64,000 nt of DNA from Bacillota bacterium (GTDB lineage: Bacteria; Bacillota; Limnochordia; Limnochordales; ZCTH02-B6). The stretch spans positions 787-64,786 of the forward strand of contig PKQS02000009.1 in assembly GCA_017577945.2 (NCBI GenBank), given 5' to 3'. A program made the translations under genes and the position numbers. Below are positions 13,874 through 56,476 of this stretch, one piece after another (positions within the stretch are counted from its first letter, which is position 1; the number at the start of each line of letters is the position of its first letter). The notes beneath the pieces are model-generated. The model had not been told where the DNA came from, did no database searches, and was given only the letters and a program-made list of their open reading frames with translations.

Positions 13874-14015
13874 CCCGTCCTCGTCGTCCTTGGTGCAGCC
13901 CCGCTGCCAGGCTGGGGCGGGTACCTTTCTACTGTATGCCGAACGCCAAGAGAGTGTGCCGGGACCCGCGGCCCAACGCCGCGCCCGGCCTGTTCAGAAG
14001 GCGAAGGAAGCCTGT

Positions 14016-14975
14016 TTAGGAGGCGAAGTAGAAGGGCCAGCGGCGCCGGACCGCCTCGACCACGTAGTCCACGGCAGCCAGGAAGGAGGGGAACGATGAG
14101 AGGTCGAGCCACTGGATGCGCTTGTCCGCGCGGAACCACGTCAGTTGCCGCCGCGCGTAATGGCGCGTGTCGCGCTGCAAGACCCGGATAGCCTCCTCCA
14201 AGCTCATGCGGCCTTTGAGATATCCGATGATCTCCTTGTAGCCCAAGCCTTGCATGGCCACGTCGTCTTCGTCGAGCCCCCGCCGCATCAGCGCGGCCAC
14301 CTCGTCGACGAGCCCCGCCTCGATTTGCTCCAGGACCCGCCGGTTGATGCGCTCGTACAGCTCTTCCCGCGGCCGCGTGAGGCCAAACATGAGCAAGTCG
14401 AACATCGATTCCTTGCCGCGGGCTTCTTTCAGGTGCTCGGACAGCGGTCGCCCCGTGCGCTCGTACACCTCCAGCGCGCGCACGACCCGGCGCAGGTCGT
14501 TCGGATGAAGCCGGGCGGCCGTCTCCGGGTCCACTTCCTTGAGGCGCGCGTGCAGCGCGGCGCGCCCGAGCCGCTGGGCTTCCTCCTCTAGGCGGCGCCG
14601 CAGCTCCCAGTCGGCGCCTCGGTCGGGGAATAAGAAGTCGTCGACGACGGCGCGCACGTACAGGCCCGTCCCGCCCGACAAGATGGGCAGCTTGCCCCGC
14701 CGGTGAATGGCGGCGATGGCCTCCAGCGCGTGGCGGCGGTAGTCTGCGACGTTGCACTCTTCCTCGGGGTCCACCAGGTCGATGCAGTGGTGGGGAACGC
14801 CGCGGCGCTCCGCCGGCGTCGGCTTGGCGGTGCCGATGTCCATGCCGCGGTAGACTTGCATCGAGTCCGCGGTGACGACTTCCGCCGGCACCCGCTGCGC
14901 CAGCTCGATGCAGAAGGCGGTCTTGCCTACCGCGGTGGGTCCCACGATGACGAGCAGCGGCTTCTTCTCCGTCAC
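14016..14975 (-). CDS. miaA: tRNA dimethylallyltransferase
   Basis: LLVIVGPTAVGKT P-loop, DSMQVYRGMDIGTAKP. Confidence 0.95.
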   Translation of the reverse strand: MTEKKPLLVIVGPTAVGKTAFCIELAQRVPAEVVTADSMQVYRGMDIGTAKPTPAERRGVPHHCIDLVDPEEECNVADYRRHALEAIAAIHRRGKLPILSGGTGLYVRAVVDDFLFPDRGADWELRRRLEEEAQRLGRAALHARLKEVDPETAARLHPNDLRRVVRALEVYERTGRPLSEHLKEARGKESMFDLLMFGLTRPREELYERINRRVLEQIEAGLVDEVAALMRRGLDEDDVAMQGLGYKEIIGYLKGRMSLEEAIRVLQRDTRHYARRQLTWFRADKRIQWLDLSSFPSFLAAVDYVVEAVRRRWPFYFAS

Positions 14976-24366: not shown

Positions 24367-24538
24367 GCTGGCGCGCACCTCCCGCCTTCCCAGTATATCA
24401 AAAGGGGCGTTCGCGGAACGCCCCTTTCGCCCATGCTTGTCCCGGCGCCGATGTCCGGGCCGGTACACCGGATGATGGATTGAGGCCGGCGCCGGGCTCC
24501 GCCGTTGCGGCTCGGGCCCGGGCGCGGCGCGCCGGTCT

Positions 24539-26122
24539 CTAGTTGGCGAACCCCAGCAGCAGCGCCAGAATGGCGGCGCCGATGCCCAGCGTTCCCATGC
24601 TGCGGGTGCGCTGCAGCTCTTCCTCGGTGCGCTGGCGGTAGGTGGAGAACTCGCTCTGCAGGTCCGCCAGCTGCCGCGCGAGCTGCTGTTCGCGCGCCAG
24701 CGTCAGCGCCAGCTGTTCGTCCAGCTCTCGGCGAACGCGCTCGGTCAGCGCCGCAATCTGCTCTTCGCTGGTACCCAGCACACCTTGCAGCGTGGCCAGT
24801 TCTTCCTGCACCCGCTGCAGCTCGCTGCGCAACTCGCCGTACTCGGCGTCCATGCGCGCCTGCAGTGTGTCGACGTCGGCCCGCAAGGCGTCCGCGGCCG
24901 TCATCACGTCGCGCACCGCGTCCGTAAGCGTTGCCGTGTGGCGCTCGACGATGCGCAAGTTGTCCCGCAGCTCCTGGATGCTCGTGTCCAGCATGGCGAG
25001 CATGGCGCGCAGCTCGGCGACGTCGTTGTCGAAGCGGCCGGTGTCGGACGCCGTCTGTTGTTCGAGAGCCGCCAGCGCCGCCGCCAGCGTCTCCAGCGCG
25101 CGGGTGTGCTCCGCGACGGCCGCGCGATGCTGCTCTACGTCCGCCTGCAAGCGGTGCACCGCCTCATCCAGCCGCGACGTCTCGGCCCGCACCTGTGCGA
25201 TGTCCTGCGAAAAGAGCGAAGCCTGCTGCTGCAGCCGCGCGCCGTACTCTTCCGTCAGCGCCGTTTGCAATTCGCCCAGCGCCGCCCGCAGTTCCGCCGT
25301 CGACTGGCGCACCGTCTCCAGCTGCGCCGCCAGCTCGTCGGTGCGCGCCTTGAAGGCCGCGTCCAGTTCGTTCAGGCGCAGGAACATGGCCGCGCCCTGC
25401 TCGCTCAGCCGGTTGTTCAACGGCACCAGCTCTTCGTCGATGCGCGCCTGCAGCGCCGCCAGCTGCGCCGCCAGGTCTCCGTAGGCGCGCGTTTGCTGTG
25501 CGAACTGCTCGTCCACCGCCACGCCATACGCGGCCAGCGTGTCCGTCACGGCGGCGTACAGCCCCTCGATGGATTGCTGCAGCTCGCTGCGCACCGCCGT
25601 CAGCTGGGCGGACAGCTGGGCCAGCCGCTCGTTCAGCGCCGCCACGTCAAGGTCGTGGCCGCTCAGCCGGCCTTCCGCCACTTGCAGCGCGCCGTCGATG
25701 CGCTCCAGCTCGAACAGAATGTTGTTCAGCTGTTCGTCGATGACGGCCAGCTGCCGCTGTGTCCGGGCCGTGATTTCCGCCAACTCCTCTCGCGCGGCGT
25801 ACCATTGCACCAGCTCGGCCCGGAACTCGGACTCCAGGCGACGCAGCAGCTCGATGTCGGCCGCCGTGCCGACTTGGACGCGGCCCGCCTGGATGTCCTC
25901 CAGCATGCGCGCAACCAACACCGCCAGGTCAAAGCGGCTGACCGGCTCGTCCCCCCGGAACAGCCCCTGGGCGTCCGTGGACAAGTAGCCCCGGGACAAA
26001 AGCGTCTGCACCGCCTCGTAGGCCCAGTGGCCCGGCGGCACGTCCGCCGTCTGGGCCGACGCCGCGCCGGCCAGCAACAACAGCAGCAAGCTGGTGAGCA
26101 ATCCTTTCCGGATCATCCTCAT
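24539..26122 (-). CDS. Signal peptide + single SLH domain + about 430-aa coiled coil + C-terminal TM helix protein (527 aa)
   Basis: Cleavable leader ending ASA-Q. SLH motif HWAYEAVQTLLSRGYL...FRGDEPVSRFDLAVLVARML. Heptad-rich, Q/A/E/L-dominated body. Last 20 residues are MGTLGIGAAILALLLGFAN. GGAGGAG SD. Confidence 0.8.
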   Translation of the reverse strand: MRMIRKGLLTSLLLLLLAGAASAQTADVPPGHWAYEAVQTLLSRGYLSTDAQGLFRGDEPVSRFDLAVLVARMLEDIQAGRVQVGTAADIELLRRLESEFRAELVQWYAAREELAEITARTQRQLAVIDEQLNNILFELERIDGALQVAEGRLSGHDLDVAALNERLAQLSAQLTAVRSELQQSIEGLYAAVTDTLAAYGVAVDEQFAQQTRAYGDLAAQLAALQARIDEELVPLNNRLSEQGAAMFLRLNELDAAFKARTDELAAQLETVRQSTAELRAALGELQTALTEEYGARLQQQASLFSQDIAQVRAETSRLDEAVHRLQADVEQHRAAVAEHTRALETLAAALAALEQQTASDTGRFDNDVAELRAMLAMLDTSIQELRDNLRIVERHTATLTDAVRDVMTAADALRADVDTLQARMDAEYGELRSELQRVQEELATLQGVLGTSEEQIAALTERVRRELDEQLALTLAREQQLARQLADLQSEFSTYRQRTEEELQRTRSMGTLGIGAAILALLLGFAN

Positions 26123-26161
26123 CGCTTCTCTCCTCCATGTCAGGCTGACCGAAAGTTCTCG

Positions 26162-28300
26162 TCAGCGGGCGTCGTCCCGCACGACGACGACGGCTTCTTG
26201 CACCACGACGTCCACCGCGGTGCCGTCTTCCGCCGCGATGAAGGCGGCCTGCGCCTCGGGGTCCAGGTACGGATGGTCGGCCACCGTCGCCAGCCGCAGC
26301 GCCGTCGTGCCGGGGCCCACGGCCCGGAAGCGGATGGCCGCCAGCGTGTCGCTCAGGCGAGCCGCCCCGCCTTCCGGCGCCCGGCTGCCGGCGATGCGCA
26401 CGACACCCCGTTCGTTGTCGACCATGGGCGTACGCCAGTCAAGCTTCGTCTCCTGCCCCGTTGCGGGATCGGCCACGACGAACGCCCGGCCGCGATCGAC
26501 GCCGAGGCGGCCGCCCAGCACTTGCAGGACGGACGGATCGAACCGCAGCTCCAGCGCCGCGCCGTAAAACTCCCGCACGTTTTCGGCGTGGATGTAGACG
26601 GTGAACAAGTCGCCCACGACCGCCTCCTTGCGTACGGCCGCCTCATCGTCCACGGTCACCCGCAGCACCGACTCCAGCAGCGGCACGGCCACGAAAGCCG
26701 TCGGCAACCGGCCGATGGACGCGTTGCTGGACGTCAGGCGCAGTGACACCGGCAAGTTGCCCACCACGCCCGTGGGAACCAAGTGCCAGGTGACCTCGAC
26801 TGTCTCGCCCGGCTGCACGGGACCGATGTAGCGCTCCGCCGCGCTGCCGCGGGCCAGCTGCAGGCCGAACACCGTGTCCAGGCGGGCCACCACATCCTCC
26901 GCCACCAGCTGGCCGACGTTGGTGATCCGCGCCGTCATGGGCAGCGGCACGTTGCCCCAGCGGCCGTCGCGGACCGTGATCTCGCCGTTGGGCAGGGCCG
27001 CCTCCAGGGCCGCCGGCGCGATGACGACCACCGTGCGGTCGACTCGGTTCGGATCCGCGTTGCTGGAGGTCACCGAGACCCGGTACGTGAACGAACCCGA
27101 CGAACCGGCCGGCACGGCCACGCGCCAGGTGACCTGGCGAGAGTCGCGCGGCGCCAGGTCGCCCAGGGCCACCGACGCCGGACCCTCCACAATCCGCAGC
27201 GGCGCGAGATTTTCCAGGCGCACCACCGTGTCCCGCGCGATCCATTCGCCGGTGTTCTCGATGTACGCCCGCACTTCGAAGAGGACGTCGCGGTTGTGGC
27301 TGCCTTCCACCGACGCCGGCGACGTGACGCCGACCGACAGGTGGCCCGGCGCGATGGTGATGCCGCCCAGGCCGTAGTACGTCACGTATGTCCGCGTCTC
27401 GCCCGGCGCCAGCGGCCGTTCATACCAGAAGAGCGCCACCGCGCTGTCCAGCGCGAACTCTTCCCCGGCGCGCGTGAAGTCGCGCCCGGGCACGAAGTCG
27501 AACTCCCACACGCCGTCGGCCAGGCTGCCCCAGTTGGTGAAGTACACTTCGTCGGGAACCGTGGTGTCCAAGGCGCGCAGCGTGCCCTGCGACACGACTT
27601 GCGGATTGGCCAGCGAGTCAAAGGCCTGGTAGTAATCGGGGATGCTGTCGCCGCGGAACGCCGTGTCCGTCAGGATGGCCCGCCCGGCCGCCTGGAACGG
27701 CGCCCCGTCGTTGCGGCCCAGCAGCGTGTCGAGCATGAGCCGCAAGCCGACGTTCACCGTCGTCGTCCCGGTGTTGGTGATCCGGTACTCGATGCGCGCC
27801 GTGTCCGGCCGCCCCGTGGTGATGCCCGGGGCGATGCTGAGGATTTGGGTGACGACGATGTCGCCTGCGCGCCAGACCGTATGGATTTCGCGTCCTTCGT
27901 GGATAAACGGCTTCTCGACGACTTCGCCGTACAGCCCTAAACGGCCGGCCCGCCGCCCCGTAGGGCCGCCGAACACGTAATTGACTCCGTTAATGCGCAC
28001 GGTCGTATACGACGTCCACGGTCCCGGCGGCTGTTCCGTGCCGAAAATGAGCGGGCGGTTCTCATCGCCGACGCGCTCGGGATCGCCGCCCGTGGTGTTG
28101 ACGGAAAAACGCCCGGTGTCCTCGTCGCGCGCGTTGACGACGATGGCGATGAACTCGTTCTCCAACACGACGCTGTCGCCGACGCGGCTTTGCAACTGCT
28201 GCGCGCCGGCCGCTGCGCCGCATGCCAGCAAGAGTGCCACGGCGCCCAGCAGCGGGACCAAGCGGCGACGACGAGCCCTGTTGCGTCCGTGTTCCGTCAC
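26162..28300 (-). CDS. Secreted multi-domain beta-rich protein with CARDB/NEW3-like repeats and a C-terminal cohesin-like domain (712 aa)
   Basis: Arg-rich signal peptide. Repeated 'PGE/DS..V.W.V..P.G' Ig-like modules. GDLFTVYIHAENVREFYGAALELRFDPSVLQV matches the type-I cohesin core pattern. GTG start with AAGGAG. Confidence 0.65.
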   Translation of the reverse strand: MTEHGRNRARRRRLVPLLGAVALLLACGAAAGAQQLQSRVGDSVVLENEFIAIVVNARDEDTGRFSVNTTGGDPERVGDENRPLIFGTEQPPGPWTSYTTVRINGVNYVFGGPTGRRAGRLGLYGEVVEKPFIHEGREIHTVWRAGDIVVTQILSIAPGITTGRPDTARIEYRITNTGTTTVNVGLRLMLDTLLGRNDGAPFQAAGRAILTDTAFRGDSIPDYYQAFDSLANPQVVSQGTLRALDTTVPDEVYFTNWGSLADGVWEFDFVPGRDFTRAGEEFALDSAVALFWYERPLAPGETRTYVTYYGLGGITIAPGHLSVGVTSPASVEGSHNRDVLFEVRAYIENTGEWIARDTVVRLENLAPLRIVEGPASVALGDLAPRDSRQVTWRVAVPAGSSGSFTYRVSVTSSNADPNRVDRTVVVIAPAALEAALPNGEITVRDGRWGNVPLPMTARITNVGQLVAEDVVARLDTVFGLQLARGSAAERYIGPVQPGETVEVTWHLVPTGVVGNLPVSLRLTSSNASIGRLPTAFVAVPLLESVLRVTVDDEAAVRKEAVVGDLFTVYIHAENVREFYGAALELRFDPSVLQVLGGRLGVDRGRAFVVADPATGQETKLDWRTPMVDNERGVVRIAGSRAPEGGAARLSDTLAAIRFRAVGPGTTALRLATVADHPYLDPEAQAAFIAAEDGTAVDVVVQEAVVVVRDDAR

Positions 28301-28333
28301 GATGCTCCACTCCTTGTCGCCGGAACTAACCCG

Positions 28334-29404
28334 TCACCGGCGTTCGACGAACTGCGGCTGCGGCTGCCAGACGGTCTGCCCTTCCTGGGAGCCCGTCGTG
28401 AACGTGACGCGCCACACTTCCACGTACGGCGACCCCGTGGCTTCAAACGACCAGCGCTCCATCAGGCCCACCAGCGCCTCGTCCACCATGTCGCGGCCCG
28501 AAGAAGCCAGCAGGACCACTCGTTCGACGCTGCCGTCGGCCCGCACGTAAATCTCCACCTGCACGTCGCTCAGCCGGACGTCCAAGGGCGTGTCTTCCAC
28601 CGCCTTCGGGCGGCCGAAGCCGAAGCGAGTCGCAAAGCTGACTCCCGCCGGTCCACCCGGCTGGGTTCCTTGCCCATCGACGGTGCCTTCCGGCGCGCCC
28701 TGGACCACCTCGTCGCCCGGTTGCGCCGCTCCCGGCGCGCCGTCGCCGGCGCCGGGCGCAACGTCCGCGGCGGCTTCCGGCTCAGGCTGCCGCGCCACCT
28801 CGGGAGCCGGCTCCGGCACAGGTTCGGGTTCCGGCTCAGGCTTCGGCGCCGGCTCGGGCTCCAGCGCCGCCGCCACCTCGAACGTGCCTTGCTCGCTCAC
28901 GAGAATGTCCTCGGCGACGCCCGGCTCCGGTTCGGCTTCAGGCTGCGGGGCGGGCGCAGGGGCAGGCTCCGGCTCAGGCCGGGGAGCCGGCGCCGGCTCC
29001 GGTTGGGGTGCGGGCCGGGGCTCCGGCTGCGGCGCGGGCCGCGGCACCGCCGCGACCGCAGGCGCAGGCGGTGCGGCCGGCTGCACCTGCTGCTGTTCCG
29101 TCCGCACGGCCACCGCGGCTTGCGGCTCGGCCGGCTGCGGCGCCTGCTGCTGGCGCGGCGGGCGGGGCTGCACGGGCGCCGCCGGCGTCGGCGCCGGGGG
29201 CGCCTGGATTGCCGACTGTCCTGGCACGAAAACGAACTCCACCAGGCCGCCGTCCGCAGGGCCGAACCAGCCGATGCCGTACAGGGAGCCTTCCATCTGC
29301 GGCCACAGCCAGATGAACAGCGCGTGCAACACGACCGAGATTAGGAGAAACCAGCCGAAACGAGACTGTTCCTCGTATTCGTCGGTGAACACCGGGCGTC
29401 TCAC
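28334..29404 (-). CDS. TonB/TolA-like energy transducer (356 aa)
   Basis: N-terminal TM with the SxxxH motif (LISVVLHAL), about 140-aa Pro-rich spacer, and a TonB_C-like end ([38 protein letters not shown]). Confidence 0.8.
28775..29203. repeat. Low-complexity Pro/Glu/Ala coding repeats (PEPxPAP units) inside the TonB-like gene
   Basis: Reiterated ccggctccgg / ggctcaggc units in the DNA. Translation reads [39 protein letters not shown]. Confidence 0.8.
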
Positions 29405-29462
29405 CTGCCTTCCCTGGCCTGCAGGCCCGCGCGCCGCCCACGGCGCTTCTTCTCACGAGCGT

Positions 29463-29876
29463 TCACGGCAGCCGTTCCACGCTCAGCGCCAGCCGGCCAG
29501 CGCCTCCTAAGCGGGCCGCGTCGATGGCCCTGACCACGTAATCGTACGACACGCGGCGATCCGCCGAAATGATCACGATGGTATTGGGATTCGAAAGCAA
29601 CGCGCTGCGGACGCGCGCTTGGATGTCGCTCTCGGAAACCGCCACCCCGTTGACGAACATCGTTCCTTGCTGCGTCACCGTGATGCGCAGCTCCGCCTGC
29701 TGTTGAACCGTCCCCGTCGCGGCTCGCGGAAGGGCGACGTCGATGCCCAGCGGTTCGGTCCGAAACGTCGTGGACACCAGCAAAAACGCGACCAAGGTGA
29801 ACATGATGTCAATCAGCGGCACGATGTTCGGGCTCGGTGAGCGCCGTCGCTCGCGAACGATGGCCACGTCACTCAC
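29463..29876 (-). CDS. ExbD/TolR family biopolymer transport protein
   Basis: NIVPLIDIMFTLVAFLL TM with the conserved Asp. Periplasmic domain pattern ISADRRVSYDYVVRAID. Confidence 0.9.
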   Translation of the reverse strand: MSDVAIVRERRRSPSPNIVPLIDIMFTLVAFLLVSTTFRTEPLGIDVALPRAATGTVQQQAELRITVTQQGTMFVNGVAVSESDIQARVRSALLSNPNTIVIISADRRVSYDYVVRAIDAARLGGAGRLALSVERLP

Positions 29877-30483
29877 CCCGCATCGTGCTGATGATTTCCA
29901 AAATCTCCGCGGTGCGCCGGTTCATGTCGGCCACCCGCCGGTCGATGATGCTGCTGAGCCAGTGGTACACCGCCATCGCCGGAATGGCGATGCTCAAGCC
30001 GGCGGCCGTGGTAATGAGCGCCTCCGCAACGCCTAGGCTGAGGTCTTGCGGCGTGGCCAGGCCTTCCAGTGCGCCGAGGACGTTGAAGCTGCGGATGATC
30101 CCCGTGACGGTGCCCAGCAGCCCGAGCAGCGGCGCGATGTTGACGACGGTCTCCAGCAAGACCATCCGGCGTTCCATCTTAAACAGCTCGGCCCGGCCCA
30201 CGTCCTCCAGCTTTTCCTTCAACTGGTCCAAGGGCAAATCGGAATACGCGACGGCCGTCGCGATCAAAGCGGCCACCTGGCTCTTGGACCGCTTCGCCAC
30301 CTGCACGGCTTGCATCACTTTGCCCTGGGTCAGGTTGAGCCGGACCTCGTCCATCAGGTCGTCGGAGTCCACCCGCGTGCTGAAGAAATACCAAAGCCGC
30401 TCCAGCGACACCGCCAGAGCCAGCACGGAGATGAACAGCAGCGGGATCATGACCGGACCGCCCTTGACGATTATGTCGACCAT
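29869..30483 (-). CDS. MotA/TolQ/ExbB proton-channel family protein
   Basis: APLLGLLGTVTGIIRSF and GVAEALITTAAGLSIAIPA signatures. 8-nt overlap with the exbD-like gene. Confidence 0.9.
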   Translation of the reverse strand: MVDIIVKGGPVMIPLLFISVLALAVSLERLWYFFSTRVDSDDLMDEVRLNLTQGKVMQAVQVAKRSKSQVAALIATAVAYSDLPLDQLKEKLEDVGRAELFKMERRMVLLETVVNIAPLLGLLGTVTGIIRSFNVLGALEGLATPQDLSLGVAEALITTAAGLSIAIPAMAVYHWLSSIIDRRVADMNRRTAEILEIISTMRGE

Positions 30484-30576
30484 GCGCCTTCCCCTTCCTC
30501 CGCGAGAGGACGTTTGGTGACAGTTTCAAATAAGATACGGCGGATTCTTCTACATACCGAAGGCGATTCCTTGTGC

Positions 30577-34400: not shown

Positions 34401-35708
34401 TCAGTCGCCGATGCGGCGCAGCACCAGCGGCCGCGGCTCCGGCGCCCGCGGGCCGATGGAGAAGGCGTTGCGGATGCGCTCCTCGACGGCCGCCACGTCT
34501 TCCGGCCGCCGGGCGTGCACTTCGCACAAGACGTCGCCTTCCTCCACCTTCGAGCCCAGTTTGGCGTGCAGGACCAAGCCCACCGCGTGGTCGACGACGT
34601 CGTCCTGCTTGCGGCGGCCGGCGCCCAGCAGCATCGTCACGTCGCCGAGCGCGTACGCGTCGATGCCGTCGACCCAGCCCGACCTGGGCGCCTCCACCAC
34701 GGTGCGCACCGGCGCCGTGGGCAGCAGCGACGGATCGTCCACGACCCGCGGATCGCCGCCCTGGTTGCGGATCATCTCCCGGAACTTTTCCAGGGCGCGG
34801 CCGCTGGACAGCGCGTCTTGCAGCTTGCGCCGCGCGTCGGCCGCGTCGTCCGCCACCCGGGCGAGGAGGAGCATCTCGGTGCCCAGCGCCAGCACCAGCT
34901 CCGCCAGATCCTCGGGGCCATGCCCGCGCAGCGTCTCGATGGCTTCTTTCACCTCGAGCGCGTTGCCGATAGCCCGGCCCAGCGGCTGGTTCATGTCCGT
35001 GATGAGGGCCACCGTCTTGCGACCCGCCCGCCGCCCAATGGAGACCATCGTCTCCGCCAGCTTTACGGTGTCCTCGAACTTCTTGAGGAACGCTCCCTGG
35101 CCCGTTTTGACGTCGAGCACCAAGGCGTCCGCGCCGGCCGCCAGCTTCTTGCTCATGATGCTGGCTGCGATGAGCGACACGTTTTCCACCGTGGCGGTTA
35201 CGTCACGCAGCTTGTACCACTTGCCGTCGGCGGGCGCGATGGACGCCGTCTGGCCGATGACGGCCACTTTGATCCGGTTGACGCTCTCCACGAACTGCTC
35301 AGGCGTCATGTACACGTTGAAGCCGGGGATGGACTCCAGCTTGTCCAGGGTGCCGCCCGTGTGCCCCAGCGCCCGGCCCGACATCTTCGCCACCGGCGCG
35401 CCGCAGGCCGCCACCAGCGGCGCCAGCACCAGCGTCGTCGTGTCGCCCACGCCGCCCGTGGAGTGCTTGTCCACCTTGATGCCCTCGATGGCGCTCAAAT
35501 CGACGACATCGCCCGAGTGCGCCATGGCCAGCGTCAGTGCGGCCGTCTCCTCGTCGGTCATGCCGCGGAAGTAAACGGCCATCGTGAACGCAGCCATTTG
35601 GTAGTCGGGAATGTCGCCTTTCGTGAACCCTTCGATCAGGAAGCGGATTTCCTCTTCCGTCAGCTGGCCGCCGTCCCGCTTCTTCCGGATCAGGTCATAC
35701 ATCCGCAT
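34401..35708 (-). CDS. pdp: Pyrimidine-nucleoside (thymidine) phosphorylase
   Basis: DKHSTGGVGD motif and full-length family pattern. Confidence 0.95.
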   Translation of the reverse strand: MRMYDLIRKKRDGGQLTEEEIRFLIEGFTKGDIPDYQMAAFTMAVYFRGMTDEETAALTLAMAHSGDVVDLSAIEGIKVDKHSTGGVGDTTTLVLAPLVAACGAPVAKMSGRALGHTGGTLDKLESIPGFNVYMTPEQFVESVNRIKVAVIGQTASIAPADGKWYKLRDVTATVENVSLIAASIMSKKLAAGADALVLDVKTGQGAFLKKFEDTVKLAETMVSIGRRAGRKTVALITDMNQPLGRAIGNALEVKEAIETLRGHGPEDLAELVLALGTEMLLLARVADDAADARRKLQDALSSGRALEKFREMIRNQGGDPRVVDDPSLLPTAPVRTVVEAPRSGWVDGIDAYALGDVTMLLGAGRRKQDDVVDHAVGLVLHAKLGSKVEEGDVLCEVHARRPEDVAAVEERIRNAFSIGPRAPEPRPLVLRRIGD

Positions 35709-54751: not shown

Positions 54752-56476
54752 TTACTGCAGCTGTGCGAGCGCCTCGGCGATCCGGGCCCGGACGAAGGAG
54801 GCCGCCTCGCCGACGGGCACCAGCTGCTGCAGCGCCCCGTCGCGGCTGGTCACTTCGACGGCGCCTTCGGCCAGCGACCGCGGACCCACCGTGATCCGGT
54901 ACGGGAAGCCGATCAAGTCCGCGTCGTTGAACTTGACTCCGGCCCGCTCGTCCCGGTCGTCCAGCACCACTTCAACGCCGTCCGCCAGCAGCTGCTCGTA
55001 CAGCTCCTCGGCCACCTGCCGCTGCTGCGCGTCGTCGTACTTGACCGGCACGATGACGACGTGGTACGGCGCCACCGAGACGGGCCAGCGGATGCCTTTC
55101 TCGTCGTGGTGCTGCTCGATAATCGCGGCCATCGTCCGGCTGATGCCGATGCCGTAGCAGCCCATGACGATGGGCTTGGACTGGCCGCTTTCATCCAGGT
55201 AGGTTGCCCCCAGCGCGGCGGAATACTTGGTGCCGAGCTTGAAAATTTGTCCCACTTCAATGCCGCGCGCCGACGCCAGCGGCTGGCCGCAATGCACGCA
55301 CGCGTCGCCCGGCCGCACCGTGCGAATGTCGGCCACCACGTGGGCTTGCCAGTCCCGTCCGGGCGCGACATGCATCATGTGCTTGTCGGCGGCGTTGGCC
55401 CCGGCGACGGCATCGCGCACGGCCCACGCCCACGGGTCGGCCACGATGCGCACGCCTTCCAAGCCGATCGGACCGGCGAACCCCACGGGTGCACGGGTGA
55501 CGCGCTCGATGACCTCGGCCGGCGCCATGACGACCTCGGTGGCGTCCAAGGCGCGCCGCAGCTTCACCGGATTGACGTCGTGATCGCCCCGCACCACCGC
55601 GGCCACGGGTTGTCCGTCCACGAGGAAGATCAACGTCTTCAGCAGCCGCCGGGTCTCCACCCCCAGCATGGCCGCCACTTCCTCGATGGTCCGGGCGCCG
55701 GGCGTGTCCACCACGCGGGCCGGCGGAACATCGCCGGCGTCCTCGCTTTCCGGAGGCGGCGCGCTCGCGGCCTTTTCCGTGTTGGCCGCGTAGTCGCACG
55801 CCGTGCAGTAGACGATTTCCGCCTCGCCGGCGTCGGCCAGCACCATAAACTCGTGCGTGACGTTGCCGCCGATGGCCCCGGGGTCCGCCTCCACGGCGCG
55901 CACCTTCAGGCCGCAGCGCGCGAACACCCGCTCGTAAGCCTCGTACATCTTCCGGTACGAGACGTCCAGCCCCGCCTCGTCCCGGTCAAACGAATACAAA
56001 TCTTTCATGATAAACTCGCGGCCCCGCAGCAAGCCGAAGCGGGGGCGGACTTCGTCGCGGTATTTGTTCGCGATTTGGTAGAGCAGCAGCGGCAGCTGCC
56101 GGTACGACCGCACTTCGGCCCGCACCAGCGTCGTGATGAGCTCCTCGTGGGTGGGACCGAGGCAGAACTCCCGCCCGTTGCGGTCCTTGAGGCGGAACAT
56201 CTCCTCGCCGTATTCATCCCAGCGGCCCGATTCCCGCCAAATCTCCGCGGGCTGCACGATGGGCATCAGCAATTCCTGGCCGCCTTTGGCGTCCATCTCC
56301 TCGCGGACGATCTGCTCAATCTTGCGCAGCACGCGCCACGCCAAAGGCAAGTACGTGTAGATGCCGGCGGCGGACCGGCGGATAAACCCGGCGCGAAGGA
56401 GCAATTGGTGGCTGGCGATCTCCGCCTCGCCCGGCGTTTCCCGCAGGGTCGGCGCCAGCAGCTGCGACATGCGCAT
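54752..56476 (-). CDS. proS: Proline--tRNA ligase (bacterial type with INS editing domain)
   Basis: [15 protein letters not shown] start and class II motifs ([15 protein letters not shown]). Confidence 0.97.

What the first reader, a model, noticed from the sequence alone, without database searches (positions are those of the whole stretch)
24539..30483. Five-gene ExbB/ExbD/TonB-like + secreted cohesin protein + SLH coiled-coil operon whose layout mirrors tolQ-tolR-tolA-tolB-pal
Seen in sequence: five consecutive minus-strand genes with an 8-nt overlap and then gaps of 58, 33 and 39 nt. Each has its own SD, and I saw no terminator-like hairpin in the gaps. The order is as follows. (1) A MotA/TolQ/ExbB channel. 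(2) ExbD/TolR with the conserved TM Asp. (3) A TonB/TolA-like transducer with an SxxxH TM motif, about 140 aa of Pro-rich spacer, and a TonB_C-like end. (4) A 712-aa signal-peptide protein built of Ig-like modules plus a cohesin-like domain. (5) A signal-peptide SLH-domain protein. Established knowledge: the proteobacterial Tol-Pal operon has exactly this logic, namely a PMF stator pair, an extended transducer, a soluble periplasmic partner, and a peptidoglycan-binding anchor. SLH domains bind wall polymers, functionally parallel to the OmpA-like domain of Pal. Inference: genes 4 and 5 are non-homologous replacements for TolB and Pal. That would make this a candidate PMF-energised, wall-tethered envelope system in a sporulating (spoIIA, spoIIM, spoVK, sigH) Firmicutes-type genome. 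TonB/Tol machinery is unexpected there unless the organism is diderm. I know of no described system with this composition.
Basis: partly seen in the sequence, partly recalled or inferred. Interest (0 to 1): 0.82.

Follow-up and report, generated by a model that had tools for sequence, protein, structure and literature searches.

The report
Conserved TonB motor–wall tether operon
A five-gene operon joins a proton-driven ExbB/ExbD/TonB motor to a secreted sugar-binding/cohesin protein and a wall-binding coiled-coil tether. It is strictly conserved in double-membraned bacteria reported to lack both the usual TonB-dependent receptors and Tol-Pal, so it may be their undescribed way of coupling energy to the outer envelope.

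Summary
Five co-oriented minus-strand genes (24539-30483) encode ExbB, ExbD, a TonB-family transducer, a 712-aa exported protein and an SLH/coiled-coil protein. The exported protein has a beta-supersandwich, two Ig-like domains and a type-II cohesin. The SLH protein ends in a single hydrophobic helix.

A conserved SigH-type promoter precedes the block and an intrinsic terminator follows it. The window comes from a Limnochordales-like MAG, a diderm Firmicute lineage, so TonB machinery there is not anomalous.

The block is not a chance neighbourhood. Of 344 species-level genomes with a gene-4 relative, the 80 best loci were examined. Every locus with enough flank has the same five genes in the same order, at 32-71% GC. 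These span Limnochordia and Halanaerobiales. Margulisiibacteriota and a further unnamed lineage carry the block too.

Published surveys found no TonB-dependent receptors in Halothermothrix orenii, and no Ton system in diderm Firmicutes other than Negativicutes. Tol-Pal was found only in Gracilicutes.

It is not homologous to Tol-Pal. Gene 3 is TonB-type, gene 4 is not TolB, and gene 5 is not Pal. The architecture is nonetheless Tol-Pal-like, and gene 5 looks like Thermotoga Omp-alpha.

The most likely function is a PMF-energised outer-membrane/wall tethering system. This is inferred, not shown. I found no description of it.

The parts
30548..30571 (-). SigH-type promoter motif AGGAATCGCCTTCGGTATGTAGAA (AGGA-N17-GAA), 65-88 nt upstream of the exbB ATG, immediately after the stop of the upstream GNAT gene
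   Evidence: Motif found upstream of exbB in 60 of 69 orthologous loci, against about 1-2 expected. Only 3 copies in the 64-kb window (0.35 expected). The architecture matches published SigH promoters (-35 AGGA, -10 GAAT, 17-18 nt spacer; PMC12456013). The sigma factor identity is inferred.
29869..30483 (-). g1: ExbB/TolQ-type proton-channel stator subunit (204 aa)
   Evidence: PF01618 1.1e-27. NCBIfam TolQ 82 bits and ExbB 61 bits, both below the equivalog cut-offs.
29463..29876 (-). g2: ExbD/TolR-type stator subunit (137 aa; alternative starts give 134 or 119 aa) with the TM Asp in 'PLIDIMF'
   Evidence: PF02472 2.1e-28. Gene calls.
28334..29404 (-). g3: TonB-family transducer (356 aa). N-terminal TM helix with SxxxH (SVVLH), ~200-aa Pro/Glu-rich linker, C-terminal TonB_C domain (aa ~270-340)
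   Evidence: TIGR01352 35.2 bits above cut-off 27.1. Orthologue profile A4 hits TonB structures at 7.8e-11, TolA at 0.009. SxxxH in all full-length orthologues.
26162..28300 (-). g4: exported 712-aa multidomain protein with a Sec signal peptide (aa 1-33; the Cys is not conserved, so not a conserved lipoprotein)
   Evidence: AlphaFold2 mean pLDDT 86. 392 and 588 homologues found.
27311..28198 (-). g4 N-domain (aa 35-330): beta-supersandwich, the most conserved part (about 75 invariant positions among 12 divergent orthologues), with a conserved but low-confidence loop at aa 72-92
   Evidence: Model pLDDT 82.7, pTM 0.86. Foldseek hits to GH94 phosphorylase N-domains, YidC P1, aldose-1-epimerase and GH116 N-domains, TM about 0.45-0.56. 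Invariant columns. No Pfam or NCBIfam model covers it.
26669..27310 (-). g4 middle region (aa ~331-544): two Ig-like/CARDB-NEW3-type beta-sandwich domains
   Evidence: NPCBM_assoc weak hit. PF07705, PF10633 and PF01345 precomputed on homologues. Secondary structure.
26165..26668 (-). g4 C-terminal type-II cohesin-like domain (aa ~545-711)
   Evidence: PF00963 24.2 bits. Profile vs PDB: ScaB 3l8q 1.7e-12, SdbA-type cohesins. The orthologue in L093 scores 38.4 bits.
24539..26122 (-). g5: exported 527-aa SLH / long coiled-coil / C-terminal helix protein (Omp-alpha-like architecture)
25922..26044 (-). g5 single SLH domain (aa 27-67), OmpM/SlpA type, followed by the conserved stalk start 'LRRLESEFRAELV'
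   Evidence: PF00395 31.1 bits. Best solved relatives are D. radiodurans SlpA 7zgx at 3.7e-10 and Veillonella OmpM 8bys/8bym. Stalk motif conserved to Halanaerobacter.
24545..24601 (-). g5 C-terminal hydrophobic helix (SMGTLGIGAAILALLLGFA) with a 1-residue tail
   Evidence: Present in all 72 orthologues examined. Median 18.5 aa, tail median 1 aa. K+R is 3.1 in the 12-aa N-flank vs 0.39 after the helix.
24400..24427 (-). Intrinsic-terminator-like hairpin AAAGGGGCGUUC-CGC-GAACGCCCCUUUU, 112-139 nt after the g5 stop and before the next gene (cysteine desulfurase, start 24378)
   Evidence: Gene calls.

Best explanation
This is one transcription unit (SigH-type promoter, five genes, terminator). 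It encodes a receptor-independent Ton-type force-transduction system dedicated to the cell envelope.

Shown or strongly supported:
- ExbB/ExbD is a PMF stator.
- g3 is a genuine TonB-family transducer, with an SxxxH membrane helix, a long extended linker and a TonB_C domain.
- g4 is a Sec-exported soluble protein with a glycan-binding-type supersandwich, two Ig-like spacers and a type-II cohesin.
- g5 is a Sec-exported protein with an OmpM/SlpA-type SLH head, a coiled-coil stalk and a C-terminal tail-anchor helix. This is the architecture of Thermotoga Omp-alpha, a wall-to-outer-membrane tether.
- The five genes are inherited as a unit in Limnochordia, Halanaerobiales, Margulisiibacteriota and at least one more lineage.

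Inferred mechanism:
- The ExbB5-ExbD2 motor pulls on or rotates TonB.
- The TonB_C domain does not engage the TonB box of an outer-membrane receptor. It engages the co-encoded periplasmic protein g4 and/or the g5 tether by beta-strand augmentation.
- g5 trimerises through its coiled coil. It binds peptidoglycan or its polymers with three SLH domains and inserts its C-terminal helices into the outer membrane.
- g4 bridges TonB, wall glycan (supersandwich) and a partner (cohesin).
- PMF is thereby used to position, load or release an outer-membrane/wall tether. This would be a non-homologous functional counterpart of TolQRA-TolB-Pal in diderm lineages that lack Tol-Pal.
For: Operon structure.

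Domain identities.

Conservation:
- 344 species-level genomes encode a g4 relative.
- Among the 80 best loci, every one with sufficient flank has ExbB-ExbD-TonB-like-g4-g5, co-oriented, mostly with gaps under 60 nt, at GC 32-71%.
- g4 relatives are found throughout named Halanaerobiales genera, including H. orenii, whose locus shows the full block.
- The same block is in Marinamargulisbacteria and marine MAGs and in an unnamed lineage.
- Geochorda subterranea carries g4 and has a diderm envelope shown by TEM (PMC11456536).

No conventional Ton clients reported:
[quoted passage not shown] g5 tether model:
- The SLH and stalk are most similar to SlpA/OmpM connectors.
- 72/72 orthologues have a terminal helix with essentially no tail.
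- The positive charges sit on the periplasmic flank in 69/72. This is atypical for an N-out/C-in inner-membrane anchor and consistent with Omp-alpha-type insertion (PMC10160955).

Wall connection: Halanaerobiales add a sixth gene, a SleB-type cell-wall hydrolase, directly after g5.

Precedent for TonB-like proteins with envelope rather than transport roles in a diderm Terrabacterium: Anabaena SjdR and TonB2 (PMC8262864, PMC8597729).
Against: - No experiment or interaction prediction links TonB_C to g4 or g5. Structure jobs were exhausted and no multimer tool is available.
- No gene fusions between components were found.
- TonB linker length and g5 stalk length do not co-vary (rho -0.13). g5 length ranges from 160 to 1447 aa, which is hard to reconcile with a simple periplasmic ruler.
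- The membrane that receives the g5 helix is not established. Sec stop-transfer into the inner membrane remains possible, and g5 would then be a wall anchor for the motor rather than an outer-membrane tether.
- The g4 supersandwich domain also heads Rhs-repeat and PKD/Ig adhesin-like proteins elsewhere. This fits a surface or secreted role as well as a periplasmic one.
- The absence of TonB-dependent receptors in this particular MAG was not tested. The literature statements rest on HMM surveys of other genomes.
- Whether Negativicutes, Cyanobacteria and other lineages have or lack the block is unknown.
Confidence: 0.45

Rival explanations
1. Nutrient or glycan import. The operon is a Ton uptake system whose outer-membrane partner is not a classical TonB-dependent receptor (for example OmpM or an undetected barrel). 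g4 is a glycan-capturing binding protein (supersandwich plus Ig plus cohesin). g5 merely positions the complex at the wall.
For: g3 is TonB-type, not TolA-type. The g4 N-domain has the fold of carbohydrate-enzyme accessory domains. Cultured Limnochordia hydrolyse polysaccharides (PMC11456536). OmpM is a nutrient channel in diderm Firmicutes (PMC10628300).
Against: No outer-membrane barrel or ABC/permease gene is conserved next to the block. The block is universal in Halanaerobiales and in small-genome marine Margulisbacteria, whatever their diet. It sits among housekeeping and envelope genes, not in polysaccharide-utilisation loci.
Confidence: 0.2
2. Developmental (sporulation or germination) envelope remodelling. 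The system acts when the outer membrane and wall are rebuilt around the forespore or at germination.
For: A conserved SigH-type promoter is present in 60/69 loci. In Limnochordia the block is embedded after dacF-spoIIAA-spoIIAB-sigF, and in 18 loci it lies before spoVAC/spoVAD. In Halanaerobiales it lies between spmA-spmB and a SleB-type hydrolase.
Against: The same block occurs in Margulisiibacteria loci, where it sits next to holB, rpsU and lptFG and no sporulation genes are seen. SigH motifs can drive many non-sporulation genes (16% of TSSs in Sporomusa; PMC12456013). Synteny within a class may simply be inherited.
Confidence: 0.12
3. Surface display or export. g4 is a cohesin scaffold ('cellulosome anchor protein' as annotated) displayed on the wall through g5. 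The Ton motor energises its export or assembly.
For: The type-II cohesin is most similar to anchoring-scaffoldin cohesins. The SLH-plus-cohesin combination mirrors SdbA/OlpB-type anchors (my own knowledge). The N-domain is found on Rhs and adhesin-like secreted proteins.
Against: No dockerin-bearing gene is conserved nearby. There is one cohesin only. The organisms include non-cellulolytic halophiles and marine oligotrophs. No route across the outer membrane is encoded in the block.
Confidence: 0.1
4. Motor anchor variant. The g5 helix sits in the cytoplasmic membrane next to ExbB/ExbD, and its SLH head fixes the stator to peptidoglycan (as the MotB OmpA-like domain does for MotA). g4 is the TonB client.
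For: A hydrophobic C-terminal segment on a Sec substrate would by default stop transfer in the inner membrane. Gly/Ala-rich small-xxx-small helices suit packing against other TM helices.
Against: The charge distribution is inverted relative to the positive-inside rule in 69/72 orthologues, and there is no cytoplasmic tail. The homologous SLH-stalk proteins (OmpM, SlpA, Omp-alpha) all point their C-termini to the outer membrane (PMC10628300, PMC9388160, PMC10160955).
Confidence: 0.1
5. Coincidental adjacency of an ordinary TonB paralogue and unrelated wall proteins.
For: None beyond the absence of direct interaction data.
Against: Order, orientation and tight spacing are kept across two phyla and GC from 32 to 71%. 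A promoter lies only before g1 and a terminator only after g5.
Confidence: 0.01

Closest known systems
[quoted passage not shown]
   Same: g1-g3 are bona fide family members. They comprise a MotA_ExbB channel, an ExbD with the TM Asp, and a TonB with an SxxxH helix, a Pro/Glu-rich linker and a TonB_C domain with the YP...G.V...SSG..LD motif in orthologues.
   Different: The co-inherited partners are not beta-barrel receptors. They are a soluble supersandwich/cohesin protein and an SLH coiled-coil tether. Published surveys found no receptors in H. orenii or in diderm Firmicutes other than Negativicutes (PMC2626281, PMC12204202).
Tol-Pal (tolQ-tolR-tolA-tolB-pal-cpoB) of Gracilicutes
   Same: The operon logic and order match: a stator pair, an extended transducer, an exported soluble partner and a wall-binding anchor. 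The lineages that carry the block lack Tol-Pal.
   Different: There is no homology for TolA domain III, TolB (beta-propeller) or Pal (lipoprotein plus OmpA-like domain). The TolQ and TolR equivalog scores are far below cut-off. The anchor uses SLH and an alpha-helical tail rather than a lipid anchor.
Thermotoga Omp-alpha (bipartite Omp-alpha/Omp-beta tether)
   Same: g5 has the same architecture: signal peptide, a single N-terminal SLH, a long coiled coil and a C-terminal hydrophobic segment (PMC10160955; Engel et al. 1992 as cited there).
   Different: No beta-barrel gene accompanies g5. It is instead coupled to a Ton motor. Sequence homology to Thermotoga Omp-alpha itself was not tested. Stalk length is highly variable (160-1447 aa total).
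OmpM / SlpA outer-membrane-to-peptidoglycan connectors of diderm Terrabacteria
   Same: The SLH head and the start of the stalk of g5 are the closest solved relatives (7zgx 3.7e-10; 8bys, 8bym).
   Different: g5 lacks the C-terminal beta-barrel. It ends in one helix.
Anchoring scaffoldins of cellulosomes (SdbA, ScaB: type-II cohesin plus SLH)
   Same: A type-II-like cohesin fold in g4 sits next to an SLH protein.
   Different: The cohesin and SLH are on separate proteins. There is a single cohesin and no dockerin partner. The context is non-cellulolytic and linked to ExbBD-TonB.
Non-transport TonB-like proteins of Anabaena (SjdR/TonB1, TonB2)
   Same: These are TonB-family proteins in a diderm Terrabacterium with peptidoglycan-structuring or outer-membrane-integrity roles rather than siderophore uptake (PMC8262864, PMC8597729).
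   Different: sjdR is monocistronic with an atypical domain structure. No link to a supersandwich/cohesin or SLH partner is reported.

Membership tests
Ton system | ExbB (MotA/TolQ/ExbB channel) and ExbD with a conserved TM Asp, adjacent | tested here: met
   PF01618 96.7 bits and PF02472 99.4 bits. Asp in 'PLIDIMF'.
Ton system | TonB: N-terminal SxxxH TM helix, extended Pro-rich linker, C-terminal TonB_C domain | tested here: met
   TIGR01352 35.2 bits above cut-off 27.1. Pfam 23.1 bits is just under GA in the window protein, but 52.2 bits in the L085 orthologue. The profile hits TonB structures at 7.8e-11. SxxxH in the orthologues.
Ton system | TonB-dependent outer-membrane transporter(s) with a TonB box as client | not testable with these tools
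   Only one contig of the MAG is available, and there is none in the window or in the flanks of 80 loci. Literature: none detected in H. orenii (PMC2626281), and none in diderm Firmicutes other than Negativicutes (PMC12204202).
Tol-Pal | TolQ/TolR equivalogs | tested here: not met
   TIGR02796 82 bits vs cut-off 221. TIGR02801 61 bits vs cut-off 127.
Tol-Pal | TolA domain III | tested here: not met
   Profile A4: TonB 7.8e-11 vs TolA 0.009.
Tol-Pal | TolB (N-terminal alpha/beta domain plus six-bladed beta-propeller) | tested here: not met
   The g4 model is supersandwich plus two Ig-like domains plus cohesin.
Tol-Pal | Pal (lipobox lipoprotein with an OmpA-like PG-binding domain) | tested here: not met
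   g5 has an SPase-I type signal (ASA|Q), an SLH domain and no OmpA-like hit.
OmpM/SlpA superfamily | N-terminal SLH plus coiled-coil stalk | tested here: met
   PF00395 31.1 bits. 7zgx 3.7e-10, 8bys 2.1e-5.
OmpM/SlpA superfamily | C-terminal outer-membrane beta-barrel | tested here: not met
   After the coiled coil, g5 ends with a 19-aa helix. This holds in all 72 orthologues.
Omp-alpha-type tether (Thermotogae) | Signal peptide, single SLH, long coiled coil, C-terminal hydrophobic anchor | tested here: met
   Architecture as described in PMC10160955.
Omp-alpha-type tether (Thermotogae) | Localisation in the outer membrane/toga and pairing with a beta-barrel partner gene | not testable with these tools
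   No barrel gene is adjacent. Localisation needs fractionation.
Cohesin (type II) | Cohesin beta-sandwich domain | tested here: met
   PF00963 24.2 bits vs GA 24.1, 38.4 bits in L093. PDB profile 1.7e-12 to ScaB.
Cohesin (type II) | A cognate dockerin-bearing partner | tested here: inconclusive
   No conserved dockerin gene lies in the flanks, and no dockerin hit was found in g3 or g5. The rest of the genome was not searchable.
MotAB-like anti-phage systems (Zorya etc.) | ZorA/ZorB or other PADLOC family hits | tested here: not met
   Only coiled-coil noise on g5. Nothing on g2-g4, and only a weak, irrelevant CARF hit (E 0.0017) on g1.

The most novel reading that the evidence does not exclude
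The block is the Terrabacterial counterpart of Tol-Pal. It would be an ancient, PMF-driven machine in which a TonB-family arm acts on a soluble glycan-binding/cohesin adaptor and on an alpha-helically anchored SLH tether. Its role would be to keep the outer membrane attached to, and moving with, the wall during growth, division or spore envelope rebuilding. Its presence in Limnochordia, Halanaerobiales and Margulisiibacteriota would imply that it predates the split of Bacillota and the cyanobacterial group. Its loss could be one step in the diderm-to-monoderm transition.
Probability: 0.3. Interest if true: 0.9.

Novelty: new variant of a known kind. Interest (0 to 1): 0.78.

Why it matters
Diderm Terrabacteria lack Tol-Pal, Lpp and Pal. 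How they energise processes at the outer membrane and coordinate it with the wall is an open question in current work on envelope evolution (bioRxiv 10.1101/2021.05.31.446380; PMC10628300; PMC12204202).

This operon offers a concrete, testable candidate. The ExbB/ExbD/TonB set was flagged in 2009 as having no receptors in H. orenii. It is in fact always co-inherited with two envelope proteins, one of which has the architecture of an outer-membrane/wall tether.

If confirmed, three things would follow:
- A third client class for TonB/TolA-type transducers would be defined, beside TonB-dependent transporters and TolB-Pal.
- Omp-alpha-like, alpha-helically anchored tethers would extend beyond Thermotogae.
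- A new marker would be available for inferring diderm envelopes and their loss in Bacillota.

Cultured hosts make it experimentally accessible: Halothermothrix, Halanaerobium and Geochorda.

Tried and rejected
- **Whole-protein Foldseek of g4** gave only multi-Ig proteins such as integrins at TM 0.25 or below. This was uninformative. The N-domain had to be modelled alone.
- **Sigma-70 promoter scan** found nothing. The conserved motif emerged only from comparing orthologous upstream regions.
- **Defence-system reading (Zorya-like MotAB)** is rejected. There are no PADLOC hits beyond coiled-coil noise.
- **RNA element in the leader or gaps:** no Rfam match at E<=0.1. Repeats are only the Pro-rich and heptad low-complexity of g3 and g5.
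- **Rosetta-stone fusions of TonB with g4 or g5:** none. P0308's 320-aa N-extension is low-complexity, not TonB_C.
- **Co-variation of TonB linker and g5 stalk length:** none.
- **Lipoprotein status of g4:** rejected, because the Cys in the signal peptide is not conserved.
- **Anabaena SjdR as an orthologous system:** rejected. It is monocistronic with a different domain structure (PMC8262864).
- **ECF-sigma reading of the promoter motif:** considered and set aside. The 17-nt AGGA-to-GAA spacing fits SigH and not the ECF GGAAC-N16-17-CGTC layout. That ECF layout is from my own knowledge.
- **Distribution in Negativicutes, Cyanobacteria and other lineages:** could not be determined.

Full report
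**1. The observation.**
ORF listing confirms five consecutive minus-strand ORFs at exactly the stated coordinates. The spacings are an 8-nt overlap, then gaps of 58, 33 and 39 nt. GGAGG-type ribosome-binding sites precede g3, g4 and g5.

Profile searches support every assignment:
- g1: MotA_ExbB, 96.7 bits.
- g2: ExbD, 99.4 bits. The TM Asp is visible in PLIDIMF.
- g3: TonB_C. Pfam gives 23.1 bits, just under its 24.6 cut-off. NCBIfam TIGR01352 gives 35.2 bits against a cut-off of 27.1.
- g4: Cohesin, 24.2 bits vs 24.1, plus weak NEW3/CARDB-type hits.
- g5: SLH, 31.1 bits vs 20.8, plus generic coiled-coil matches.

No terminator-like hairpin lies in the three gaps. The few consensus hits are inside coding sequence and occur at the shuffled-sequence rate.

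Two boundary elements were not in the finding. A 9-12 bp GC-rich hairpin followed by UUUU lies 112-139 nt after the g5 stop, before the next gene (24400-24427). A conserved promoter motif lies before g1 (section 6). Base composition of the block is the same as its surroundings.

**2. Source and context.**
The identical protein is found on contig VSDB01000007.1 of MAG GCA_047459235.1. The closest relatives of g4 (64-76% identity) come from MAGs labelled Limnochordales or Firmicutes.

Flanking genes are housekeeping and sporulation genes. Upstream are spoIIM, dacF, spoIIAA, spoIIAB, sigF and a GNAT gene. Downstream are a cysteine desulfurase, thiI, miaB, mutS and mutL. Elsewhere in the window are nusA-infB-pnp, dnaE, dxr and rseP.

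Limnochordia are one of three Firmicute lineages with an LPS outer membrane. Cultured members show a diderm envelope by TEM (PMC11456536). One of them, Geochorda subterranea, carries a g4 homologue. TonB-type machinery is therefore not anomalous in this organism.

**3. Conservation.**
An alignment of g4 homologues (A1) was used to scan one genome per species. 344 genomes encode a relative, and the best 80 loci were fetched with 10-kb flanks.

tblastn with the five window proteins and independent ORF calling gave a uniform result. Every locus with enough flank has:
- ExbB (about 204 aa);
- ExbD (about 135 aa);
- a 260-456-aa ORF with an SxxxH N-terminal helix;
- g4 (660-740 aa);
- an SLH protein with a C-terminal hydrophobic helix.

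All are on one strand, mostly with gaps under 60 nt, at GC contents from 32% to 71%.

The set includes isolates of Halanaerobiales: Fuchsiella, Frackibacter, Natroniella and Halanaerobacter. A second protein search shows g4 in essentially all named Halanaerobiales genera, including Halanaerobium and Halothermothrix orenii. The H. orenii locus reads ExbB-ExbD-TonB_C-g4-SLH-Hydrolase_2.

A profile of the g4 N-domain alone was run against 1.84 billion representatives. It finds 3306 clusters at E<=1e-3 and 936 at E<=1e-30. Distant full-length members belong to Candidatus Marinamargulisbacteria/Margulisiibacteriota. Three loci of that group (one from a named Marinamargulisbacteria genome, two from unnamed marine metagenome contigs) show the same five genes in compact form: TonB 163-219 aa and SLH protein 160-170 aa, next to holB, rpsU and lptF/G. 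A fourth, unnamed lineage also has the block. SLH passes the Pfam threshold in all of these.

The refutation criterion 'not conserved as a unit' is clearly not met.

**4. What the parts are.**

*g3.* An alignment of 20 orthologous C-termini shows the classical TonB_C signature, YPKNA..G.EG.V.L.V.V...G....V..SSG...LD. As a profile it hits solved TonB C-domains at 7.8e-11, but TolA only at 0.009. g3 is therefore TonB-type. The linker is Pro-rich in Limnochordia, Glu/Lys-rich in Halanaerobiales, and about 55 aa in Margulisbacteria.

*g4.* The AlphaFold2 model has mean pLDDT 86. It has four parts:
- A signal peptide. The Cys in it is not conserved, so g4 is not a conserved lipoprotein.
- A ~300-aa beta-supersandwich.
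- Two Ig-like sandwiches.
- A C-terminal cohesin. A family profile hits type-II cohesins ScaB and SdbA at 1.7e-12.

The supersandwich was modelled alone (pLDDT 82.7, pTM 0.86). It matches the N-domains of GH94 phosphorylases and GH116, the YidC P1 domain and aldose-1-epimerase, at TM about 0.45-0.56. This is the galactose-mutarotase-like fold typical of carbohydrate-binding accessory domains. It is the most conserved part of the protein. It carries about 75 invariant positions among 12 divergent orthologues, including a conserved but low-confidence loop at aa 72-92. No Pfam or NCBIfam model covers it. The same domain also heads Rhs-repeat and PKD/Ig adhesin-like proteins in other organisms.

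*g5.* After an SPase-I signal come a single SLH domain and the start of a stalk. Their closest solved relatives are the outer-membrane/peptidoglycan connectors SlpA of Deinococcus (3.7e-10) and OmpM of Veillonella. There is no beta-barrel. After 70 to more than 1300 residues of coiled coil, the protein ends in one hydrophobic helix.

Across 72 orthologues the helix has a median length of 18.5 aa. It is followed by a median of one residue. It is preceded by 3.1 Lys/Arg within 12 residues, against 0.39 after it. The N-flank is more positive in 69 of 72.

This is the architecture of Thermotoga Omp-alpha: SLH, a coiled coil of about 45-50 nm and a C-terminal anchor, abundant in the toga (PMC10160955). 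The charge pattern is the reverse of what the positive-inside rule predicts for an N-out/C-in inner-membrane anchor. I read this as favouring insertion into the outer membrane from the periplasm. It is not proof.

**5. Why this is not an ordinary Ton system or Tol-Pal.**
[quoted passage not shown] One search shows that this set is the present operon.

A 2025 survey of force transducers states that among Firmicutes only Negativicutes have detectable Ton systems (tonB plus TBDT). It also states that curated Tol-Pal systems occur only in Gracilicutes (PMC12204202).

Membership tests for Tol-Pal fail for every component. The resemblance is one of organisation, not descent.

No paper in the searchable library combines ExbB, ExbD, cohesin and SLH. 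None describes such an operon in Terrabacteria.

There are precedents for TonB-like proteins with wall or outer-membrane-integrity roles in a diderm Terrabacterium, namely Anabaena SjdR and TonB2. These are not the same system (PMC8262864, PMC8597729).

**6. Regulation and neighbourhood.**
Comparison of the regions upstream of exbB revealed a bipartite motif, AGGA(W)(W)-N-(T)GTCGAA, with 17 nt between AGGA and GAA. It occurs in 60 of 69 loci, against 1-2 expected. The window copy is at 30571-30548.

The motif matches the published SigH promoter architecture: -35 AGGA, -10 GAAT and a 17-18 nt spacer (PMC12456013). The sigma factor assignment is inferred.

Neighbour clustering gives two patterns:
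- In Limnochordia the block follows dacF-spoIIAA-spoIIAB-sigF-(PHP)-GNAT in 40-46 of 62 loci. In 18 loci it precedes spoVAC/spoVAD.
- In Halanaerobiales it lies between spmA-spmB-PHP and a SleB-type hydrolase. That hydrolase follows g5 within a few hundred nt in all eight loci examined, and by only 16 nt in L085 and L089.

This suggests a link to stationary-phase or sporulation envelope remodelling. However, the block also occurs in Margulisbacteria, in a non-sporulation gene context. The core function is therefore probably not sporulation-specific.

**7. Mechanism.**

*Shown:* the identities, the operon boundaries, the strict co-inheritance and the export signals.

*Inferred:*
- The ExbB/ExbD stator energises TonB.
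- TonB_C binds by beta-augmentation to g4 and/or g5 instead of to a receptor's TonB box.
- g5 trimerises, as OmpM, SlpA and Omp-alpha do. It binds wall material with three SLH domains and anchors in the outer membrane with its terminal helices.
- g4 bridges TonB, wall glycan and a cohesin partner.
- PMF thereby controls an outer-membrane/wall tether.

I put this at about 0.45. The main alternatives are:
- glycan or nutrient import through a non-classical outer-membrane partner (0.2);
- a developmental envelope-remodelling role (0.12, partly compatible with the main reading);
- surface display of g4 (0.1);
- g5 as an inner-membrane, MotB-like wall anchor for the motor (0.1).

*Weak points:* there is no interaction evidence and there are no fusions. 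TonB linker and stalk lengths do not co-vary. The membrane that receives the g5 helix is unknown. TBDT content of this MAG, and the status of Negativicutes, Cyanobacteria and others, are untested.

**8. Verdict.**
The finding is real and robust.

The system is best filed as a new variant of the Ton/Tol class of PMF-driven trans-envelope machines. It has previously undescribed clients and is distributed across at least two phyla of diderm Terrabacteria. It deserves experimental follow-up in cultivable Halanaerobiales or Limnochordia.

Noticed in passing
window 30548-30571 (-); also 34521-34543 (-) and 14005-14027 (+): SigH-type bipartite motif AGGA-N17-GAA. The copy before exbB is conserved in 60/69 orthologous loci. 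A second copy lies ~290 nt upstream of dacF/spoIIA, inside the end of the preceding gene. A third is on the plus strand at ~14 kb. Three copies against 0.35 expected in the window.
   Followed up: partly
window 24400-24427 (-): Strong hairpin plus U-tract (AAAGGGGCGUUC-CGC-GAACGCCCCUUUU) between g5 and the cysteine desulfurase gene. The consensus terminator scan missed it because its T-run rule was not met.
   Followed up: yes
L085 12584-13192, L089 10786-11379, and L056, L057, L076, L079, L081, L086: In all Halanaerobiales loci a SleB/CwlJ-type cell-wall hydrolase (PF07486) with an N-terminal hydrophobic segment follows g5 on the same strand (16 nt after g5 in L085 and L089). It is possibly a sixth operon gene in that order.
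   Followed up: partly
Loci L007-L086, flanks of the block: In Limnochordia the block is inserted between the spoIIA operon (dacF-spoIIAA-spoIIAB-sigF, then PHP and GNAT genes) and, in 18 loci, spoVAC/spoVAD. From my own knowledge, spoIIA and spoVA are neighbours in B. subtilis. In Halanaerobiales spmA-spmB-PHP lie upstream.
   Followed up: partly
P0372, P0371, P0376, P0370 (hits): The g4 supersandwich domain, which has no Pfam model, also occurs at the N-terminus of an Rhs-repeat protein, of PKD-repeat proteins and of a 'choice-of-anchor D' adhesin-like protein. It is a wider uncharacterised domain family: 3306 clusters at E<=1e-3.
   Followed up: partly
L090 2039-3073, L091 4391-5428, L092 4234-5271: In all three Margulisbacteria-type loci a LOG/'Lysine_decarbox' (PF03641 plus LDcluster4) gene sits directly upstream of exbB. 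holB, rpsU and lptF/G sit downstream.
   Followed up: no
g5 orthologues across L007-L092: Total length varies from 160 aa (Margulisbacteria) and ~223 aa (Halanaerobiales) to 1447 aa (L082), while the SLH head and terminal helix stay constant. Length does not correlate with TonB linker length.
   Followed up: partly
L062, P0289, P0384, L078: Some carriers are labelled Betaproteobacteria, Thermoproteota archaeon, Actinobacteria or Natronincola. These are probably mis-binned or mis-labelled MAG contigs, given their close similarity to Limnochordia or Margulisbacteria sequences.
   Followed up: no
window 54752-56476 (-): A 574-aa protein without any Pfam hit lies between rseP (Peptidase_M50) and a GT2 glycosyltransferase, upstream of dnaE.
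   Followed up: no
window 29405-29462: A short GC hairpin (GCGCCG-TGGG-CGGCGC) lies in the exbD-tonB gap. No U-tract follows it on the coding strand, so it is not a terminator. It could affect mRNA stability or translational coupling.
   Followed up: no
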